Part shown: positions 4,688 to 17,174 of the stretch, piece after piece
How positions within the stretch are numbered: position 1 is the stretch's first letter
Layout: each line of letters starts with the position of its first letter
Source: a virus
Taxonomy: Duplodnaviria; Heunggongvirae; Uroviricota; Caudoviricetes
IMG/VR virus record: IMGVR_UViG_2778261447_000005
Coordinates: 1 to 18,499 of that record
Reading direction: 5' to 3' (one strand)
Length of the DNA stretch: 18,499 nt
Program-made: the position numbers and the translations under genes
Notes under the pieces: generated by a model
Told to the model about the DNA's origin: nothing
Database searches by the model: none
What the model saw: only the letters and a program-made list of their open reading frames with translations

Positions 4688-5229
4688 GTGCTGCCTCCCG
4701 TGTCGCGAAGACACCACTGTCTGAACTCCTCCCGGCGGTTAACCAGCCCCTGTGAGCGGCGTCCGCCACTGTTGACAAAATCGGTCAGTCTCCCGCACAT
4801 CGCCACCCAGCGGTGCGCCTGTGCGTGCTTCCAGATGGTGGTGCGCTGCCGGTTGCCGCTCCTGTCCCGGTACCACATCAGGCCGGTACAGCCGACGTTG
4901 AACGCCGCGTCGGTCATCGCCTCAAAGGCGGACTGGGGCATGGCGGCACCGCTGAAGTTCTGGTTGATACAGTTTTCCGCGTGCCGCAGGTCATTCACCC
5001 AGCGGCGGGCCACCTCCTTTTCTCCGTAAACCCGGTTCTCCACGCCCCCTGTTGAACCACATCCCACGGTCATTACTCCTGCAATATCACGGTACGGTGT
5101 CGCCCGGCACTCTTCCCGGGTGGCGATTTTTATCTGTGCTTCCCGTGAGGTTCTCAGTTCACCGGGTGCCATGGAGACGCCCAGCGCCACAATGGCCGCC
5201 ACCGCATAACGTTTTACCGGCAGTTTCAC
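4684..5229 (-). CDS. Endolysin, GH24 (T4-lysozyme-like) with N-terminal SAR/signal-anchor domain
   Basis: 181 aa; hydrophobic Gly/Ala-rich N-terminus (YAVAAIVALGVSMAPG) followed by catalytic E-x8-D-x5-T spacing in EECRATPYRDIAGVMT; C-terminus resembles P21 R21-type SAR endolysins. Start codon appears to be GTG overlapping the holin stop. Confidence 0.85.
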   Translation of the reverse strand: MKLPVKRYAVAAIVALGVSMAPGELRTSREAQIKIATREECRATPYRDIAGVMTVGCGSTGGVENRVYGEKEVARRWVNDLRHAENCINQNFSGAAMPQSAFEAMTDAAFNVGCTGLMWYRDRSGNRQRTTIWKHAQAHRWVAMCGRLTDFVNSGGRRSQGLVNRREEFRQWCLRDTGGST

Positions 5230-10994: not shown

Positions 10995-12049
10995 TGAGCA
11001 GAAAAAATAAACAACGACGTACGAACGCCCGCGCAGCGCAGGGCAGCCTTGCGGATTCCCTGCGAAGCGACCCGACACTAAGTGCCTTCACGTTTGAAGG
11101 ACCTTACCGGCTGTCAGGGGCCGACCTGCTGGACAGCATGTACTGCGCCGACAACGGGCGGTGGTTTGAAACGCCCGTTGACTGGTACGGACTGGCACGG
11201 GCTGCCCGCCAGACGTCCTGGCACCAGTCGGCGCTCAGCTTCAAACGTAATGTGCTGCTGGGCTGCTATATTCCACATCCTCTGCTGTCCCGCCAGGAGT
11301 TCGCCGGGGTGGCGATGGACTGGTTTGTGTTCGGTAATGCCTGTCTTGAGCTGCGGCGCAACATGCTTGGCGAACCGCTGGCCCTGCGCCGGGCGCTGGC
11401 GAAATACATGCGACGTGGCAGCGATATGAAATCATGGTGGTATATACAGGAAGGACAGGAAGAGTACCGCTTTCGTGAGGGGACGATATGCCACCTGATG
11501 AATCCTGATATCAACCAGGAGATTTACGGGATGCCGGATTACCTGGGCGGCCTGCTGTCTGCCAGCCTGTCACATTCCGCCGATATCTTCCGCAAGCTCT
11601 ACTACGATAACGGCTCACACGCGGGCTGTATTGTCTACATCGGTGCGGCGCAGGTTGACCGTGAAAGCATGGAAAAACTGCGGGAAACACTGCAAAGCGC
11701 GCGTGGTGGCGGGGCGTTTAAAAATCTGCTCATCCACGCGGCGGGAGGTGGTAAGGATGGCGTACAGATTTTGCCGTTTCAGCAAATCACCGCAAAGGAT
11801 GAGTTCATGAACGTCAAGGCTGCATCGCGTGATGATGTGCTGTCCGTGCACCGTGTACCGCCGCAGCTGATGGGGGCCATGCCGGGTGAGAAGGGGTCAT
11901 TCGGGGATGTGGAGAAGGCAGCCCGTGTGTTTGCCATTAACGAACTGATGCCCGTCATGGAAGCAATGAAACACGTCAACGACTGGCTGGGCGAAGAGGT
12001 GATCCGTTTTAACCCTTACGCACTGTTAGACACCCAGCCCATATCCTGA
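10994..12049 (+). CDS. Q: Portal (capsid vertex) protein gpQ-like
   Basis: 351 aa; SAFTFEGP, NGRWFETPV, PDINQEIYGMPDYL, GKDGVQILPFQ and QLMGAMPGEKGSFGDVEKAARVF match P2 gpQ as I recall it; start overlaps P stop. Confidence 0.9.
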   Translation: MSRKNKQRRTNARAAQGSLADSLRSDPTLSAFTFEGPYRLSGADLLDSMYCADNGRWFETPVDWYGLARAARQTSWHQSALSFKRNVLLGCYIPHPLLSRQEFAGVAMDWFVFGNACLELRRNMLGEPLALRRALAKYMRRGSDMKSWWYIQEGQEEYRFREGTICHLMNPDINQEIYGMPDYLGGLLSASLSHSADIFRKLYYDNGSHAGCIVYIGAAQVDRESMEKLRETLQSARGGGAFKNLLIHAAGGGKDGVQILPFQQITAKDEFMNVKAASRDDVLSVHRVPPQLMGAMPGEKGSFGDVEKAARVFAINELMPVMEAMKHVNDWLGEEVIRFNPYALLDTQPIS

Positions 12050-12075
12050 CGCGCTTCGCTTGTCTGCTGCTTCGC

Positions 12076-12100
12076 CGGGGCATAAAAAATTTATGCCCCG
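12076..12100. terminator. Perfect 11-bp stem / 3-nt loop hairpin between convergent Q and the 12116 ORF
   Basis: cGGGGCATAAAaaaTTTATGCCCCg read directly; lies 27 nt after the Q stop and 16 nt after the convergent ORF stop. No flanking U-tract, so terminator function is inferred from position only. Confidence 0.45.
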
Positions 12101-12115
12101 ACTCTCCAGCTCTGC

Positions 12116-12619
12116 TTAACGAAGTGCTGATGGCGCTCGCTTTTTCAGGTGATTAGCGATGTGCTTTTTCATGTGCATAACAACATCGCCCCAGGCTTCT
12201 TCGCTGGGTTTATTGATAAATACGCGAACAGAAATATCGTCTTCCACCCGGACTCTCAGAGACACCCGTTCCGCATCTACTGAATATAATTCAAGTGCAA
12301 TAACCACGCTTACCGGGTAGCTGCTGTCAGATGACTTAACCCAGGTTCGCACGGCCATGCGGAAAATATTGTCTGGTGCAGATGCGATATTGTGGACTGA
12401 AAGAGGACTAAAATCCGCCGCTGTCTTACATGGCAAGCCTGTCTCCACGTAGCGGTGCAGGTCGCCATCATCGTCTTCCCAGTACATGGATGGAAGCCCC
12501 AGCCATTCTTCATAGAAATCAATCAGCCTTGCCGCTTCATCCCGCAAAATTTGAGCTGCCTCAGCGCGTTTTTCTTCAGCTTCACGATTGATCTGGCATA
12601 AATCATTAAAGTGGCTCAT
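12116..12619 (-). CDS. Hypothetical protein, unrecognised family (accessory/moron candidate); alternative in-frame start at 12826/12829 would give ~237 aa
   Basis: ATG 12619 is preceded by AAGAGGA at optimal spacing (MSHFNDLCQINREAEEKRAEAAQILRDEAARL..., 167 aa). The same frame stays open 70 codons further upstream (TTG-ATG at 12829/12826) but without an RBS. No resemblance to P2 structural or replication proteins that I can recall. Confidence 0.55.
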   Translation of the reverse strand: MSHFNDLCQINREAEEKRAEAAQILRDEAARLIDFYEEWLGLPSMYWEDDDGDLHRYVETGLPCKTAADFSPLSVHNIASAPDNIFRMAVRTWVKSSDSSYPVSVVIALELYSVDAERVSLRVRVEDDISVRVFINKPSEEAWGDVVMHMKKHIANHLKKRAPSALR

Positions 12620-13045
12620 GACATTATCCTCTTTTGAGTTGATGCCTGCCGCTATTCTGACTTTGCCCGGGTTCTCCTGCAAGCTGGTTATTCCTTCAGA
12701 TAATTTCACAACATCTCCAACCTTGTAGCCATCATCGCCGGGCGGATGCTTACGCAACCCCGCAACTCTGACGACATATTCTCGCTGCCTCAGTGCGATT
12801 TTGACGGCCTTATCTTTCACCCCCATCAAATCAAGCTTTTACGTCTTTTTTACGCTCAGCGTGAGAAATACAGCCATTCTGTTGTGTCGCTGCAACATCG
12901 TTCAGGGAATGCTATTTACCCCCTGAAACGCGGGCTGTTCCCCCGTCACCTGCGCGCAGAAAAAGGCCTTTTTTCGTGCACGCACGGATCCCCGACGGAT
13001 CCAGACGCCACACGGGCCGGAAGGGCAAAAAGTCGTTCAAAAAAA

Positions 13046-13072
13046 TTGTGCAAATTTGTGCACTATTGTGCA
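13046..13072. repeat. Three perfect direct repeats of TTGTGCA at exact 10-bp phasing
   Basis: aTTGTGCAaatTTGTGCActaTTGTGCAttg read directly (13046, 13056, 13066), immediately adjacent to the terminator hairpin, inside a ~280-bp non-coding stretch. Confidence 0.5.
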
Positions 13073-13080
13073 TTGAAATA

Positions 13081-13103
13081 AACGCCCTGGAGGAGGGCGT
13101 TTT
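13081..13103. terminator. Rho-independent terminator, probably bidirectional; ends the minus-strand A-linked operon
   Basis: AACGCCCTggaggAGGGCGTT (8-bp GC-rich stem, 5-nt loop) followed by TT on plus and by TTTATTTCAAT on minus; begins 7 nt after the stop of the 13110..13511 ORF. Confidence 0.65.
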
Positions 13104-13109
13104 GCTCAT

Positions 13110-13511
13110 CTATTTATAGCCTTGCCCCTTACTGGCCAGCGCCCTGATGGCAGGGCGTGCCAACACCATATTTTGGCAATGATGAATTGCCCGGCAAAAT
13201 TCATCTCTACCCATTGGATGCTCAACTGGCAATGTAAAATACAGGTTCCATGCATCGCCTAAAAGTTGGGCTATCTTTTGTTCTTCAGATGTCAGCAAGC
13301 GGTACTCCCCATCCTTGATGTAGTCACTTGTGCCATCGACCTGCTGTTCTGCAATGTGGAAAGCACCTATTGGTTTTGCTTCCAGCGATGCCAAAGCAAT
13401 CCGTGCCAGTTTTTCCGCTTCTTCGGCTGGCAGTACAACGTTGCTACCAGGTCCGTATGTTTCGCGCCACTGCCTGATTGTCAGTAGTCGCTCTTTGGTT
13501 ATAGTGGTCAT
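13110..13511 (-). CDS. Hypothetical protein (133 aa), last gene of A-linked cassette
   Basis: ATG 13511 overlaps the upstream stop (ATGA); GAGGAT RBS; ends just before the terminator. Sequence MTTITKERLLTIRQWRETYGPGSNVVLPAEEAEKLARIALASLEAK... not recognised. Confidence 0.55.
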   Translation of the reverse strand: MTTITKERLLTIRQWRETYGPGSNVVLPAEEAEKLARIALASLEAKPIGAFHIAEQQVDGTSDYIKDGEYRLLTSEEQKIAQLLGDAWNLYFTLPVEHPMGRDEFCRAIHHCQNMVLARPAIRALASKGQGYK

Positions 13512-13717
13512 TTGTTAATCCTCAAAACTTTATGCCCGGGCGCAAAAGCACGAGTTTTGTCTTTGCTTATTCGCCAGCCATCCTTACGCGCCTCTTTTGC
13601 ACAGCCAGTCCATGACGTACCGATATATTCACCGAAGTCTGGCGTTTGATATTTACCATTTGTACACTGGCGACAATCACAATAGAGATGCATGGTGTAA
13701 CTTGCGGCAATAGCCAT
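13508..13717 (-). CDS. Hypothetical small Cys-cluster protein (69 aa), possible zinc-binding
   Basis: ATG 13717 with AGGAG RBS; contains C-x-C-x2-C ... C (HLYCDCRQC...WTGC); stop overlaps the next start. Confidence 0.5.
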   Translation of the reverse strand: MAIAASYTMHLYCDCRQCTNGKYQTPDFGEYIGTSWTGCAKEARKDGWRISKDKTRAFAPGHKVLRINK

Positions 13718-13718
13718 A

Positions 13719-14033
13719 TCAGTCTCCTTTGATGCCAGTGTTTACAACCTGACAAGCCTCTTTGAGCACCCAGTCAACAGCGTCTTGCCATGCTCCGGTT
13801 TCGACTGGCGGATTCTCACGCTTTACCAGTTCATAGAAACGTACTGCTCTAACCAGTCCATCTGACGGTTTTACCTGTAGTGCAGCCTGAGCTATGCGGT
13901 ATACCTGGAGCATACAGGCGTCGTTGATATCCATTCCGAATGGAATATCTGATGACTGAGATTCCACATCTTCCAGCCTGGCAATTTCTTTACGTAAGAA
14001 GCCTTTCAGTTCCTGCTTCTGTTTCCTGTTCAT
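13719..14033 (-). CDS. Hypothetical protein (~104 aa)
   Basis: The track ORF 13719..14048 starts on a TTG; the first ATG at 14033 (MNRKQKQELKGFLRKEIARLEDVES...) has a GAAGGA RBS. Family not recognised. Confidence 0.5.
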   Translation of the reverse strand: MNRKQKQELKGFLRKEIARLEDVESQSSDIPFGMDINDACMLQVYRIAQAALQVKPSDGLVRAVRFYELVKRENPPVETGAWQDAVDWVLKEACQVVNTGIKGD

Positions 14034-14044
14034 ATATTTTTCCT

Positions 14045-14239
14045 TCAAAGTTCGGTTCGCTGACAGGGTTTCTCTTTACGGCAGACAATGACGCTTCCTT
14101 TGCTCGAGTCGGTGATTGTTACCGTGCCGTCATCACACTGGACAATGACAACGGTGTTGCTCTTTTTCGCTACGCAGTTCGGCGTGGCTGATTGTGCGAA
14201 TGGCGCGAAAAACAGCAGAAAAAGTAATATTCTGCTCAC
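14045..14239 (-). CDS. Hypothetical small secreted protein (64 aa precursor, ~45 aa mature, 4 Cys)
   Basis: GTG start at 14239 overlapping the upstream stop (GTGA), GGGAGG 8 nt upstream. Product MSRILLFLLFFAPFAQS|ATPNCVAKKSNTVVIVQCDDGTVTITDSSKGSVIVCRKEKPCQRTEL has a classic type-I signal peptide with an AQS-type cleavage site. The track's longer 123-aa version would overlap the upstream gene out of frame. Confidence 0.5.
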   Translation of the reverse strand: MSRILLFLLFFAPFAQSATPNCVAKKSNTVVIVQCDDGTVTITDSSKGSVIVCRKEKPCQRTEL

Positions 14240-14667
14240 TGTTGTTTCCTCCCGTTCTGTGCTGGTCTGGCGAATGAATTGCGTTGTGGTGAAAAGACCA
14301 TTCGCGCCAGCGCGGCCTTGTGATTGACTGTGTTCAGTGTTCTGGCCAGTCCGCCGTTGTGCCTGCGTGTCCGCTCTTCGTGATATCTCTGCATGATTTT
14401 CCCGGCAGGCGTGCACGGCTCCGGTTCCTCCGGCGAACGGCGCGGACGAATGACGACAGTCCAGCTATGGCTCTCGCTGCCCGGCCGCCTGTTGAGTATG
14501 TCGGCGATGGTGGTCTCCGTGGTGCGATCGGGGCTGACTATCGTGATTTCCAGCTCGTCGCCCGGTTGTGGCCTTGTGGCAGGCCTGAACAGTGTCAGCA
14601 CCGGCATACGCTGGCGCATGATGGCCTCAAACTGTGGGCGCTGCATGGTGCAGCAAAATCGCGTCAT
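14236..14667 (-). CDS. Hypothetical Arg-rich protein (143 aa), translationally coupled to A
   Basis: ATG 14667 overlaps the A stop (ATGA) and is preceded by GGAGG; at the position of P2 orf91 but longer, and I do not recognise the sequence. Confidence 0.5.
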   Translation of the reverse strand: MTRFCCTMQRPQFEAIMRQRMPVLTLFRPATRPQPGDELEITIVSPDRTTETTIADILNRRPGSESHSWTVVIRPRRSPEEPEPCTPAGKIMQRYHEERTRRHNGGLARTLNTVNHKAALARMVFSPQRNSFARPAQNGRKQQ

Positions 14668-17174
14668 GCTCCCGCCTCCACTGGCTGCTCTGTGATGATG
14701 TGACGGGCTGACTCATCCCAGTACGCTGTTCCCCCGTTATCCAGACGCACACGGGCACCGTTACGCACGGAGATGATGGCCGCGTCAGGCAACTGCACAC
14801 CCAGCGCATCAAGTTCGCGGGCGATTTGCGTGTCCGTCGCGGTATCCGCAGGCACGACAATCCCCACCCTTACAGGGGTGTCAGATGCCGGTGTGGTGTC
14901 GTTTTGTCCGGTTTTTGCGCCCGACGGCTGATTTTTAATCTGATTACGCAGTTTTCTCCGATCGCCCCTGCTTAACGTATTCAGCCAGCTTTCCAGGTTC
15001 TCTTCGGGAAGCGTCAGTCGTCCGGGGTCCTGCCTGTTTTCTGGTCCGTGATTGTCTGTTTTTTCATCCCGGGGACAGTTATTGCCACGAGTCCAAGGGG
15101 CGACGGGGTCGCCCTGAAGGTCAAAACCCTCGCCCGTGCGGTTGTCTGGTGTTGTTTCTTTTTTAACCAGTTTCCACTCGTCCGGATGGGTGCATATGGT
15201 GTACCGCTCTCCGAGCGACGGGGCGCAGATTCCGTAGATACGTTGAGGGAATTCACCGTAGTCGTTGGCTTCGTCTGCGGTTTCGTATGCGGTGCGGACC
15301 AGATACTGGTTGCGCGGAATGAGCACACCACCCTGTTTCATGATGTAGGTGGCAAAACATCCCACATCTGCGGCAGCCATAATGGCGTCAATATCGTCAT
15401 GATCGAGGTGCTTCGGTGATGCCGGGTTGCGCTCCATCTGGCTTGCAAGGCGGCGGAGTTCACGCCATACCTGGCGGGGCGGAATGCCGAAAAACTGGAA
15501 CTGACGGATGCGGTGAAGGCTTGCCCAGGCAATGGCGTTCTCCACGGTTTCCGCCATGGTTTTCCCGGATTCCTCATCAACGTAAGGTTTTCCGGTTTTC
15601 GGATCATTGTTGTGGAAAGCGCTGGCGTCCAGGTTCTTACCGATATAGGTTGCGATATAGCTTGCCGGTGTGCCTTTTTCCGGGTCTATCTTCTCGCATT
15701 TAAAGCGCGGTGAAATATCGTCCCCCAGTTCGTGGCGATCTGATTTAATTGCTGCTTCGCGCATAATTTCGATGATGCGCTCTGCGTTCTCCGGGGAAGT
15801 GAATACCAGCATATGCCAGTGTGGCGTGCCGTCATGGTGTGGCTCAGCGGTTCGCACGCCGTACCAGCCCAGCCCCTCTTTTTTTATTTTTTTTCTTACG
15901 GCTGCGAAGAAGTCGTAAACCAGATAATCACTGGCATCTCGTACTGTGGCACCGTTGTATTTCGGGTTCAGGCTGCCGTTCTCGTTCACGCTGTGAAAGC
16001 GGGAAGGGGTGGTTACTGTGATGAAGAATGCGACGTCAGCCCGTAATTCGGCCACCATCTCCATCCCTCTGACGCAGACCATCATTTCATTGCGGCGGTT
16101 GCGTGGATTACCCAGGCCAGCCCAGTACACGTCCTCCAGACTCAGGCGCTCGCCGTCTTCGTTTTCAATATCCCAGCTTTTGAGAAAGTCACGGGTGCGC
16201 TGGCGCTTCTCGCGGAACTCCAGTAGTGACTCATGGCTGATATAGGGGGATTGTTTACGTGACACTCTGCCGGCGGCGCGCAGTAACTCCTCCCGCCAGA
16301 GATCGGCGACGTGGCGTAACTGGTTGTTCCACCAGGTCGCGCAGGTGATGCGCAGTACCGCACCCGGAACCCGTTCAGGGTCCGGCGGTGTGCGTCGGTT
16401 GTGCCTGATTTCGAGTTCCGGCCAGTATGGCGGGACCACGCCCAGAATTAAGGCTGTGCGTGCCACCTTCTGGTAGGCCAGCAGCCAGATAACAGGGCTG
16501 TCATTATCCTTGCCTGTCCGTTCAAGAACTTCATCACATATGCGTTCAAATTCTGCGGCGAATGCCTGGGCTGTCAGTGTGGCGATGCGCTGGATTTCGT
16601 CACGGGTGAGTTGCGGCAGTGTGAGCAGTTCTTCAAGGCGATGGCGCACGACGGTGGTTTTGAATGCCGGCGTTGCAAAGCGGTCGTTAACCCTTTCAAT
16701 ACGTTTCAGGCGCGCACGCAGTCCACGGCGAACGAAATTATCGGCCACGTATGCGCTGTTGTTTTTTACACCTTCACTGCGGGCACTTTGCTGTTTCCGG
16801 TTCAGTCGTGCCAGATCACGGATCAACACACTGGCAAGAAACGAGGGCAGGGTGCGAAGTTCGGCTATCGCCTCCGATACCGCCGTTGGCGGATTTTCGC
16901 GTCTGTGTCGTGCCAGCTTATCCAGCCTTATCTGCCGCTCTTCGTCCCGGTGAAGGTGTGAATTAATTTGCTTACCTTTGTCCGTGGTTGTCAGGAAGGC
17001 CACGGTTTCTTCATCCAGCCGGGCCTCAGTGCGAATGTCTTCGGTGAGGTAGTCACGGATTGCCCGTTGTAATGCGGTTGGCTTCTGCGGTAATGCTCTG
17101 CCGAATGTCTCAGGATCAATAACCGGCAGCGGGGCGTTCCACGGGTACGCCAGGTGCGTGTGGTGATGGCTCAT
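14664..17174 (-). CDS. A: Replication initiation protein gpA-like (HUH rolling-circle endonuclease)
   Basis: 836 aa; YPWNAP near the N-terminus, HUH motif in EPHHDGTPHWHMLVF, catalytic-Tyr motif SYIATYIGKN; all match P2 gpA as I recall it. GGGGAG RBS. Confidence 0.9.
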   Translation of the reverse strand: MSHHHTHLAYPWNAPLPVIDPETFGRALPQKPTALQRAIRDYLTEDIRTEARLDEETVAFLTTTDKGKQINSHLHRDEERQIRLDKLARHRRENPPTAVSEAIAELRTLPSFLASVLIRDLARLNRKQQSARSEGVKNNSAYVADNFVRRGLRARLKRIERVNDRFATPAFKTTVVRHRLEELLTLPQLTRDEIQRIATLTAQAFAAEFERICDEVLERTGKDNDSPVIWLLAYQKVARTALILGVVPPYWPELEIRHNRRTPPDPERVPGAVLRITCATWWNNQLRHVADLWREELLRAAGRVSRKQSPYISHESLLEFREKRQRTRDFLKSWDIENEDGERLSLEDVYWAGLGNPRNRRNEMMVCVRGMEMVAELRADVAFFITVTTPSRFHSVNENGSLNPKYNGATVRDASDYLVYDFFAAVRKKIKKEGLGWYGVRTAEPHHDGTPHWHMLVFTSPENAERIIEIMREAAIKSDRHELGDDISPRFKCEKIDPEKGTPASYIATYIGKNLDASAFHNNDPKTGKPYVDEESGKTMAETVENAIAWASLHRIRQFQFFGIPPRQVWRELRRLASQMERNPASPKHLDHDDIDAIMAAADVGCFATYIMKQGGVLIPRNQYLVRTAYETADEANDYGEFPQRIYGICAPSLGERYTICTHPDEWKLVKKETTPDNRTGEGFDLQGDPVAPWTRGNNCPRDEKTDNHGPENRQDPGRLTLPEENLESWLNTLSRGDRRKLRNQIKNQPSGAKTGQNDTTPASDTPVRVGIVVPADTATDTQIARELDALGVQLPDAAIISVRNGARVRLDNGGTAYWDESARHIITEQPVEAGA

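What the first reader, a model, noticed from the sequence alone, without database searches (positions are those of the whole stretch)
14045..14239. Small secreted disulfide-type peptide encoded inside the cassette with a GTG start hidden by the ORF track
The track reports a 123-aa ORF from 14416, but its N-terminal 59 codons overlap the upstream gene out of frame. A GTG at 14239, preceded by GGGAGG at 8 nt and overlapping the upstream stop, gives a 64-aa precursor with a textbook signal peptide (MSRILLFLLFFAPFAQS) and a ~45-aa mature part with 4 cysteines and beta-rich segments (TVVIVQCDDGTVTITDSSKGSVIVC). A periplasmic mini-protein in a phage cargo locus is a typical form for entry/superinfection exclusion or envelope-targeting factors.
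Basis: partly seen in the sequence, partly recalled or inferred. Interest (0 to 1): 0.6.

Follow-up and report, generated by a model that had tools for sequence, protein, structure and literature searches.

The report
Exported four-cysteine phage mini-protein gene
A real 64-codon gene in a P2-like E. coli prophage encodes a small protein that is very probably exported to the periplasm and held by two disulfide bonds; it belongs to an unstudied family shared by many enterobacterial phages and IncI2 plasmids, and its function has not been tested.

Summary
A GTG at 14239 sits 8 nt after GGGAGG and overlaps the TGA of the upstream 143-aa gene. It opens a 64-codon gene (14045-14239, minus strand). 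The 123-aa ORF is an artefact. The gene is not hidden: RefSeq already annotates exactly this CDS (WP_000086827.1, hypothetical), and Rousset et al. 2022 list the cassette as six hypotheticals in the P2 gpA-gpQ hotspot.

The product has a Sec-type signal peptide (R3, hydrophobic stretch, AQS|A, no lipobox, no Tat motif). The mature part is 47 aa with four cysteines. About 80 homologs, all in Enterobacterales, keep the signal peptide, the four Cys and a TQCDDGTVT motif. Unsaturated dN/dS estimates for the mature part are 0.08-0.47. AlphaFold gives a confident five-stranded beta-meander with no relative in PDB, Pfam, NCBIfam or PADLOC.

Homologs lie singly in co-directional early or replication-proximal gene strings of lambdoid, P2-like, phage-plasmid and large phages, and beside virB6-virB5-eexN in IncI2 plasmids. 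Here the gene is translationally coupled to gpA, and no promoter of its own was found. That argues for early lytic expression, not a lysogen-expressed defence gene.

Function is untested. My best guess, at low confidence, is a periplasmic binder that protects the envelope from incoming DNA.

The parts
14045..14239 (-). CDS of the 64-aa precursor (GTG start, TGA stop)
   Evidence: It is identical to the RefSeq CDS WP_000086827.1. It matches PHROG 20764 at 4e-10 and PHROG 11462 at 1e-8.
14189..14239 (-). Predicted Sec/SPase I signal peptide, residues 1-17 (MSRILLFLLFFAPFAQS)
   Evidence: R3 in the n-region; best 10-residue hydrophobicity 2.83; P13 at -5; A-Q-S at -3 to -1. No lipobox or Tat motif. 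AF2 pLDDT is only 64-73 here. dN/dS is relaxed against the two nearest relatives. The cleavage site is inferred and was not run through SignalP.
14048..14188 (-). Mature 47-aa peptide, four Cys (C22, C35, C53, C59), motif VQCDDGTVT
   Evidence: Cys and motif are invariant or nearly so across 71 sequences. Five strands at 22-27, 30-35, 40-44, 49-53 and 60-63, pLDDT 95-98. dN/dS against the two nearest relatives is 0.29 and 0.12.
14248..14253 (-). Shine-Dalgarno GGGAGG, 8 nt before the GTG, inside the 3' end of the upstream gene
   Evidence: Read directly.
14236..14667 (-). Upstream 143-aa gene. Its stop overlaps the GTG (GTGA) and its ATG overlaps the gpA stop (ATGA)
   Evidence: PHROG 14984, E 5.6e-82. 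GC 0.60 against 0.49 for the 64-aa gene. It is not linked to the family gene in other genomes.
14664..17174 (-). gpA replication endonuclease, the head of the coupled gene string
   Evidence: RefSeq annotation. Phage_GPA Pfam on the homologous protein in L007.
13719..14033 (-). Downstream 104-aa gene, 11 nt after the stop, with its own AAGGA site
   Evidence: PHROG 26213 and 660.
13048..13063 (-). Terminator-like hairpin plus T-run after the 133-aa gene; probable end of the gpA-proximal transcription unit
   Evidence: Consensus scan only.

Best explanation
The gene encodes a small secretory protein.

Shown by sequence and comparison: translation starts at GTG 14239, coupled to termination of the upstream gene. 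The product has a Sec-type signal peptide with an SPase I site (AQS|A). The 47-aa mature part carries four conserved cysteines and is predicted with high confidence to be a five-stranded antiparallel beta-meander.

Inferred:
- It is released into the periplasm and oxidised to two disulfides. C22-C35 would staple the first hairpin, since these residues face each other across strands 22-27 and 30-35. C53-C59 would close the last loop.
- It is transcribed with gpA from the early lytic promoter, so it is made during lytic growth rather than in the resting lysogen.
- It works alone. It has no catalytic motif and no constant partner gene, so it would act by binding a target in stoichiometric amounts. 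Because the family is confined to Enterobacterales and is shared by phages with different receptors and by IncI2 plasmids, that target would be a conserved enterobacterial envelope component.

My committed guess for the role: it protects the cell that carries the element from a second incoming DNA, either a superinfecting phage genome or conjugative DNA. This would resemble what T4 Sp/Imm, T5 Llp and plasmid entry-exclusion proteins do, but with an unrelated fold.

Confidence by layer: real exported disulfide protein about 0.85; early lytic expression about 0.6; exclusion role about 0.3.
For: - Start, SD and coupling. Same CDS in RefSeq.
- Signal features in 70 of 71 relatives; all 71 have a -3/-1 site shortly before Cys1; none has a lipobox or Tat motif.
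- Conserved Cys and TQCDDGTVT motif.
- Purifying selection, stronger in the mature part than in the signal peptide for this gene's nearest relatives.
- AF2 pLDDT 95-98 for residues 21-64.
- No enzyme or known domain.
- Single-gene mobility: upstream neighbours fall into more than 20 unrelated groups. Contexts are after gpA+ParM/ParR in other P2-like prophages; between O/P or DnaB/DnaC and nin/Q in lambdoid prophages; large phages; roughly 90-kb phage-plasmid-like replicons; and three genes upstream of virB6-virB5-eexN in IncI2 plasmids.
- 4-nt start/stop overlaps with neighbours in many loci.
- No minus-strand promoter-like site in 11900-15000.
- Taxonomic restriction.
- That a periplasmic protein can block phage DNA entry has a published precedent in the unrelated HXS system (PMC13128918, abstract).
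Against: - No experiment, and no homology to any characterised exclusion or defence protein.
- No signal-peptide predictor was available, and disulfide connectivity could not be checked on coordinates.
- The promoter scan is a crude consensus search, so a weak or non-sigma-70 internal promoter is not excluded.
- Temperate-phage exclusion genes are usually expressed in lysogens (my background knowledge), which does not fit this operon position.
- One common Salmonella variant (P0053: 21 member sequences, 29 contigs) has Tyr in place of the fourth Cys, so the second disulfide may not be essential.
- The most conserved motif (CDDGT) may be a structural beta-turn rather than a binding site.
Confidence: 0.35

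Rival explanations
1. It is a periplasmic modulator that serves the phage's own development rather than exclusion. It would bind and inhibit or activate a host periplasmic enzyme or stress sensor (protease, peptidoglycan hydrolase, nuclease, or the Rcs/Cpx/sigma-E input) to keep the envelope intact or tune it until lysis.
For: The export, fold and early-operon evidence is the same as for the best explanation. Placement among early host-takeover-type accessory genes (Ead/Ea22, DUF551, Pol III theta, DinI neighbours) fits a host-manipulation role as well as it fits exclusion.
Against: No similarity to known periplasmic inhibitor families. The IncI2 plasmid copies next to virB6-virB5-eexN are less easily explained by a lytic-cycle helper.
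Confidence: 0.25
2. It is lysogen-expressed defence cargo of the P2 gpA-gpQ hotspot, like tin or old. This is the first reader's framing: made constitutively by the prophage to exclude other phages.
For: It lies in the hotspot defined by Rousset et al. 2022. GC drops from 0.60 to 0.49 exactly at the start of this gene, marking acquired DNA.
Against: There is no intergenic space, and the gene is translationally coupled to gpA through the 143-aa gene. No minus-strand promoter-like site was found. No PADLOC hit for any cassette protein apart from one weak match (E 0.025) on the 104-aa neighbour. Homologs elsewhere are in operons repressed in lysogens or in virulent phages. The other cassette genes are ordinary early accessory genes that recur in the lambdoid and phage-plasmid loci.
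Confidence: 0.12
3. It is not released. The N-terminal hydrophobic stretch stays as a membrane anchor, or the protein is a lysis-timing factor of the antiholin type, tethering the beta domain to the inner membrane.
For: A few relatives have longer N-termini with two hydrophobic segments (P0076, P0080, P0083). No cleavage predictor was run.
Against: The hydrophobic core is only about 9-12 residues, followed by Pro at -5 and a small-x-small site, in essentially all members. That is typical of cleaved signals and short for an anchor. The gene is never next to holin or endolysin genes in the loci examined, and it occurs in plasmids that have no lysis genes.
Confidence: 0.08
4. It is not a functional gene of this size. 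Either the 123-aa ORF or an antisense ORF is the real product, or the ORF is a decaying hitch-hiker.
For: The mechanical ORF list gives 123 aa. RefSeq annotates an antisense 64-aa ORF instead of the sense gene in E. coli UMNF18.
Against: The 123-aa extension overlaps a conserved gene out of frame and is absent in homologs. Sense-frame dN/dS is well below 1 and the Cys and motif are conserved down to 25-30% identity. AF2 gives a confident fold.
Confidence: 0.03

Closest known systems
PHROG families 20764, 11462 and 8391 (phage proteins of unknown function)
   Same: Direct profile matches (E 4e-10, 1e-8 and 4e-3). Same size class. These are the same family or its near relatives.
   Different: The families carry no function, no name and no description of export or cysteines. 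This entry adds the anatomy, not a function.
T4 Spackle (Sp, gp61.3) and Imm, early superinfection-exclusion proteins of T4 (from my own knowledge of the literature)
   Same: Sp is a small protein with a cleavable signal peptide, made early in the lytic cycle and active in the periplasm. That timing and location match what is inferred here.
   Different: No sequence or fold match in any search. From memory, Sp is helical, while this protein is all-beta with two disulfides. Sp's target, the gp5 lysozyme of T4-like phages, would not explain a family shared by lambdoid, P2-like and jumbo phages and by plasmids.
T5 Llp and the Cor proteins of phi80/N15/HK022, plus plasmid entry-exclusion lipoproteins (TrbK, EexN) (from my own knowledge; an EexN gene is annotated three genes away from the IncI2 homolog)
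   Same: Very small envelope proteins of mobile elements that block entry of a second DNA.
   Different: Those are lipoproteins. None of 71 family members has a lipobox; the residue before the first Cys is H, Y, N, D or A. No sequence similarity was found.
HXS antiphage system effector (PMC13128918, Nat Commun 2026; abstract seen)
   Same: Published precedent that a periplasmic protein can act against phage DNA entry.
   Different: That effector is a chromosomal defence protein with His-x-Ser repeats matured by a radical-SAM enzyme. No such enzyme or repeats occur here, and there is no homology.

Membership tests
Sec-dependent, signal peptidase I-cleaved secretory precursor | Positively charged n-region, hydrophobic h-region, small uncharged residues at -3 and -1 | tested here: met
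   R3; ILLFLLFFA core (mean Kyte-Doolittle 2.83 over 10 residues); P13 at -5; A15-Q16-S17 then A18. 70 of 71 relatives have the hydrophobic stretch, and all 71 have a -3/-1 site in the 14 residues before Cys1.
Sec-dependent, signal peptidase I-cleaved secretory precursor | Positive call and cleavage site from a trained predictor (SignalP 6, DeepTMHMM), or experimental export | not testable with these tools
   No such predictor or experiment was available. The cleavage site AQS|A is inferred from the -3/-1 rule.
Bacterial lipoprotein (the class of Llp, Cor, TrbK and EexN exclusion proteins) | Lipobox [LVI][ASTVI][GAS]C at the end of the signal peptide | tested here: not met
   0 of 71 family members match. 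Here the sequence is T-P-N-C.
Tat-exported protein | Twin-arginine motif in the n-region | tested here: not met
   0 of 71 match. This protein has a single Arg.
PHROG 20764 / 11462 | Significant match to the family profile | tested here: met
   E 4e-10 (residues 19-62) and 1e-8 (residues 8-57).
Disulfide-stabilised mini-protein | Conserved even number of Cys in an exported domain | tested here: met
   Four Cys in the mature part in 68 of 71 sequences. C22 and C35 are invariant; C53 and C59 are kept in at least 90%.
Disulfide-stabilised mini-protein | Actual disulfide bonds and their connectivity | not testable with these tools
The C22-C35 pairing is inferred from the hairpin register, and C53-C59 from their proximity in sequence.
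P2 gpA-gpQ hotspot anti-phage system (tin/old type) | Location between gpA and the portal gene | tested here: met
   The hotspot is defined in PMC9122126, and this cassette is listed there as six hypotheticals.
P2 gpA-gpQ hotspot anti-phage system (tin/old type) | Similarity to a known or candidate defence protein | tested here: not met
   No PADLOC hit for the 64-aa protein. No Pfam or NCBIfam hit.
P2 gpA-gpQ hotspot anti-phage system (tin/old type) | Own promoter and expression in the lysogen | tested here: inconclusive
   No minus-strand sigma-70-like site in 11900-15000, and overlapping stop/start codons from gpA onward. The scan is crude, and no expression data were available.
P2 gpA-gpQ hotspot anti-phage system (tin/old type) | Measured protection against phages | not testable with these tools
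   In the supplementary text held, this cassette appears only in the catalogue file and not among the cloned systems.
T4 Spackle-type periplasmic exclusion protein | Sequence or fold relationship | tested here: not met

The most novel reading that the evidence does not exclude
The family is a previously unrecognised class of periplasmic gatekeeper shared by phages and conjugative plasmids. In this reading, a roughly 5-kDa two-disulfide beta-sheet protein docks onto a conserved enterobacterial envelope protein, for instance by adding its edge strand to an exposed beta-sheet. It thereby blocks passage of incoming DNA, both phage genome ejection and IncI2-type conjugative entry, while the resident element replicates.
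Probability: 0.15. Interest if true: 0.7.

Novelty: new variant of a known kind. Interest (0 to 1): 0.4.

Why it matters
Small exported proteins of phages are few and mostly unstudied. The characterised ones (Sp, Llp, Cor) each revealed how DNA crosses the envelope.

This family has several features that make it worth a direct test. It has a clean anatomy and a confident fold with no solved relative. It occurs in temperate, virulent and jumbo phages, and also in the IncI2 plasmids that spread mcr-1. If it blocks DNA entry or alters a conserved envelope protein, it would point to a common weak spot used by unrelated invaders.

If it does nothing measurable, it remains one more hypothetical early gene. 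Nothing here changes current understanding of P2 biology, and the gene itself was already annotated.

Tried and rejected
- **Known families.** Pfam, NCBIfam and PADLOC scans of the protein gave nothing. Pfam on all 71 relatives gave only scattered chance-level hits.
- **The 123-aa product.** Rejected; see the observation check.
- **Antisense ORFs** (13940-14191 and 14088-14327, plus strand). Rejected because selection and conservation follow the sense frame.
- **Lipoprotein or Tat export.** Rejected.
- **A conserved partner gene.** The upstream neighbour varies widely. The downstream neighbour often shares only an N-terminal module common to a whole class of variable early genes, and it differs in P2-like, IncI2 and large-phage loci. 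I therefore treat the gene as autonomous.
- **Literature.** A search for the accession found nothing. Two IncI2 papers (PMC11873049, PMC7508951) do not mention the gene in the passages found. A word search for small periplasmic phage exclusion proteins found only the unrelated HXS system.
- **Genome-wide scan.** One genome per species found a single further carrier, a Pantoea, so the scan added little.

Full report
**Where the window comes from.** The window matches P2-like prophages of E. coli at 100% identity over the 2 kb tested. In NZ_CP033635 the region is annotated as capsid scaffold, terminase, portal, then a set of small hypothetical genes on the other strand, then the gpA replication endonuclease. 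The finding therefore lies in the gpA-gpQ variable region. Rousset et al. 2022 (PMC9122126) describe that region as a hotspot holding tin and old in P2 itself.

**The observation.** On the minus strand, GTG is at 14239-14237. GGGAGG is at 14253-14248 with an 8-nt spacer. The TGA of the upstream 143-aa ORF is at 14238-14236, so the two genes overlap as GTGA. The reading frame runs to TGA 14047-14045 and gives 64 residues.

The mechanical 123-aa ORF starts at GTG 14416, inside the 143-aa gene and out of frame with it. That upstream gene is real: it is a full-length match to PHROG 14984 at E 5.6e-82. In relatives from other prophages the frame upstream of the start is closed by a stop, and an ATG aligns within one or two codons of this GTG, preceded by a purine-rich site.

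RefSeq already annotates exactly this CDS as WP_000086827.1, hypothetical protein. The Rousset supplement lists this very cassette from NZ_CP033635 as six hypotheticals.

**Is it a real, selected gene?** A word-indexed search with the single sequence found only three close relatives. Further searches then widened the set:
- tblastn found diverged copies in Erwinia jumbo phages and a Klebsiella phage, and in 173 plasmids.
- An exhaustive profile search found ten more small relatives among its 18 hits.
- A profile search of the large collection gave 78 proteins, every one unnamed or called hypothetical and none with a Pfam domain.

In the 71-sequence alignment, C22, Q34, C35, G38 and T39 are invariant. 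D37, V40, T41, V52, C53 and C59 are kept in at least 90%. The spacing between the first two Cys is always 13-14 residues.

Pairwise Nei-Gojobori estimates in the sense frame, where not saturated, give dN/dS of 0.08-0.47 for the mature part, mostly 0.1-0.3. For this gene against its two nearest relatives the mature part gives 0.29 and 0.12, against 0.87 and 0.57 for the signal region. A loosely constrained hydrophobic leader in front of a constrained domain would give that pattern.

The family is rare. Only 26 of 5,426 complete E. coli genomes carry it. Only one of about 185,000 species-representative genomes does, a Pantoea.

**Export.** The N-terminus has one Arg, a hydrophobic core (ILLFLLFFA, mean Kyte-Doolittle 2.83 over ten residues), Pro at -5, and A-Q-S before A18. 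Of 71 family members, 70 have such a core. All 71 have a -3/-1 small-residue site in the 14 residues before the first Cys; in the members printed it lies 4-5 residues before it. None has a lipobox or a twin-arginine motif.

The leader sequences differ widely (AQS, AHS, AMA, AIA, VQA, VTA endings) while the pattern is kept. The core is short for a membrane anchor. I could not run SignalP, so cleavage after S17 is an inference from the -3/-1 rule. The predicted mature product is 47 aa, 5.02 kDa, pI 8.5.

**Fold.** AlphaFold2 with the 71-sequence alignment gives mean pLDDT 88, and 95-98 across residues 21-64. The strands are at 22-27, 30-35, 40-44, 49-53 and 60-63. In the first hairpin, residues 22 and 35 are register partners, so a C22-C35 disulfide is the natural pairing. 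C53 and C59 flank the last loop, which varies from 5 to about 10 residues in relatives. I could not inspect coordinates, so this connectivity is inferred.

**Context here.** gpA ends and the 143-aa gene begins in an ATGA overlap. The 143-aa gene ends and the 64-aa gene begins in a GTGA overlap. The next genes (104, 69 and 133 aa) follow with gaps of 11 nt or less, or with overlaps.

A consensus scan finds no sigma-70-like site on the minus strand between 11900 and 15000. It does find a hairpin plus T-run at 13063-13048, just after the 133-aa gene. The simplest reading is one transcription unit continuing from gpA, which would be the early lytic operon. This rests on a crude scan and is not shown.

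GC falls from 0.60 in the 143-aa gene to 0.49 in the 64-aa gene and stays at 0.45-0.49 through the rest of the cassette. A mosaic junction therefore lies at the start of this gene. The 104-, 69- and 133-aa proteins have relatives in the same lambdoid and phage-plasmid-like loci that carry the family gene, up to 98% identical for the 69-aa protein. The block looks like a piece of an early accessory gene array transplanted into the P2 hotspot.

**Context elsewhere.**
- In other P2-like prophages the gene follows gpA-ParM-ParR and precedes an SSB or a ClpX-type zinc-finger gene.
- In lambdoid prophages of Citrobacter, Salmonella and Klebsiella it lies between the replication genes and the nin/Q region, with 4-nt overlaps on either side.
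- In roughly 90-kb non-mobilizable plasmids it sits in a similar array. These carry phd/doc, a Pol III theta gene and Ead/Ea22 genes, which I take to be phage-plasmids.
- It occurs in long co-directional gene strings of large phages.
- In IncI2 conjugative plasmids it lies three genes upstream of virB6, virB5 and an EexN entry-exclusion lipoprotein gene.

Across 55 loci the upstream neighbour falls into more than 20 unrelated groups. The downstream neighbour forms one blastp cluster in 35 loci, but only through a shared N-terminal module of an otherwise variable gene class, and it differs in the P2-like, IncI2 and large-phage loci. I conclude that the gene moves and works as a single unit.

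**What it most likely does.**
- Shown: a conserved, selected, signal-peptide-bearing four-Cys beta protein, with no enzyme features and no fixed partner.
- Inferred: periplasmic location, two disulfides, early lytic expression, and action by binding.

The family is confined to Enterobacterales yet is carried by elements with unrelated receptors and by a plasmid. The target is therefore more likely a conserved envelope component than a particular phage receptor.

Two roles fit. One is protecting the occupied cell against a second incoming DNA, as early T4 and T5 genes and plasmid entry-exclusion genes do. The other is manipulating a host periplasmic enzyme or stress pathway for the element's own benefit. 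The IncI2 position beside an entry-exclusion gene tips me slightly toward the first. I put the exclusion role at about 0.3 and the host-manipulation role at about 0.25.

A membrane-anchored or lysis-timing role gets about 0.08. A non-gene gets about 0.03.

**Comparison with what is known.** By profile match the protein is a member of PHROG 20764/11462, families with no function. It is not a lipoprotein, so it is not of the Llp/Cor/TrbK/EexN class. It has no detectable relation to T4 Sp, and no match to any PADLOC model. The HXS system (PMC13128918) shows that periplasmic blocking of phage DNA entry exists, but it is unrelated in sequence and maturation.

**Verdict.** The sequence-level claims of the finding are confirmed. 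The gene is already annotated. The functional claim is plausible but untested, and its lysogenic framing is doubtful. It is a well-defined, uncharacterised family of exported mini-proteins: a reasonable experimental target, not a surprise.

Noticed in passing
window 13110-13511 (-) and 13719-14033 (-); downstream neighbours in L004, L009-L017, L028-L047, L051-L055: Many genes next to the family gene share an N-terminal module (MT.IT+E...ELARIALASL[DE]A.PV) followed by unrelated C-terminal parts of 50-300 aa, some of them DUF551. The window's 133-aa protein has the module clearly (MTTITKERLL...AEKLARIALASLEAKPIGAF), and the 104-aa protein has a degenerate form. It looks like a polymorphic early-gene class with a constant head and swappable tails. 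Its function is unknown.
   Followed up: partly
L006 4959-5153 (-) versus 4984-5184 (+), E. coli UMNF18: RefSeq annotates an antisense 64-aa ORF (WP_136746568.1) where the conserved sense gene of this family lies. This is probably a mis-call.
   Followed up: partly
L005 3869-4135, IncI2 plasmid pE566-mcr-1.1: The IncI2 homolog is annotated as 88 aa. The family alignment suggests the true start is the internal Met (MSAFIKLASV...), which gives a 71-aa precursor with a normal signal peptide.
   Followed up: partly
window 13377-13511 region; L001 4378-4512: RefSeq marks only a 135-nt fragment here as an incomplete pseudogene, while the window has an intact 133-aa ORF (13110-13511) with PHROG matches over its whole length.
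   Followed up: no
window about 14240: There is a sharp composition break. GC is 0.60 (GC3 0.69) in the 143-aa gene, against 0.49 (GC3 0.55) in the 64-aa gene and 0.45-0.49 in the rest of the cassette. This marks a recombination junction exactly at the GTGA overlap.
   Followed up: yes
P0053 / L012-L014 (Salmonella prophages) versus L027-L028: A common Salmonella variant (21 member sequences, 29 contigs) has Tyr in place of the fourth conserved Cys (EDYMEISL versus EDCMEISL), which leaves an odd number of cysteines.
   Followed up: no
P0076, P0080, P0083; L018 5884-6339: Some relatives from large phages are 105-112 aa and have an extra N-terminal hydrophobic segment before the usual leader. 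These may be membrane-tethered versions, or their start codons may be mis-called.
   Followed up: no
window 13508-13717 (-): The 69-aa Cys-rich protein (PHROG 926, CDC..C....C pattern) recurs in the same loci as the family gene. It is directly upstream of it in Klebsiella prophages L051, L052 and L055, and 1.7-2.6 kb upstream in the phage-plasmid-like loci. This may be no more than a shared gene pool.
   Followed up: partly
window 12116-12829 (-): A 237-aa gene (PHROG 5091, unknown function) lies beyond the terminator-like hairpin, after a roughly 280-nt gap. It probably forms a separate unit of the hotspot, and it has a relative in another P2-like prophage (L024).
   Followed up: no
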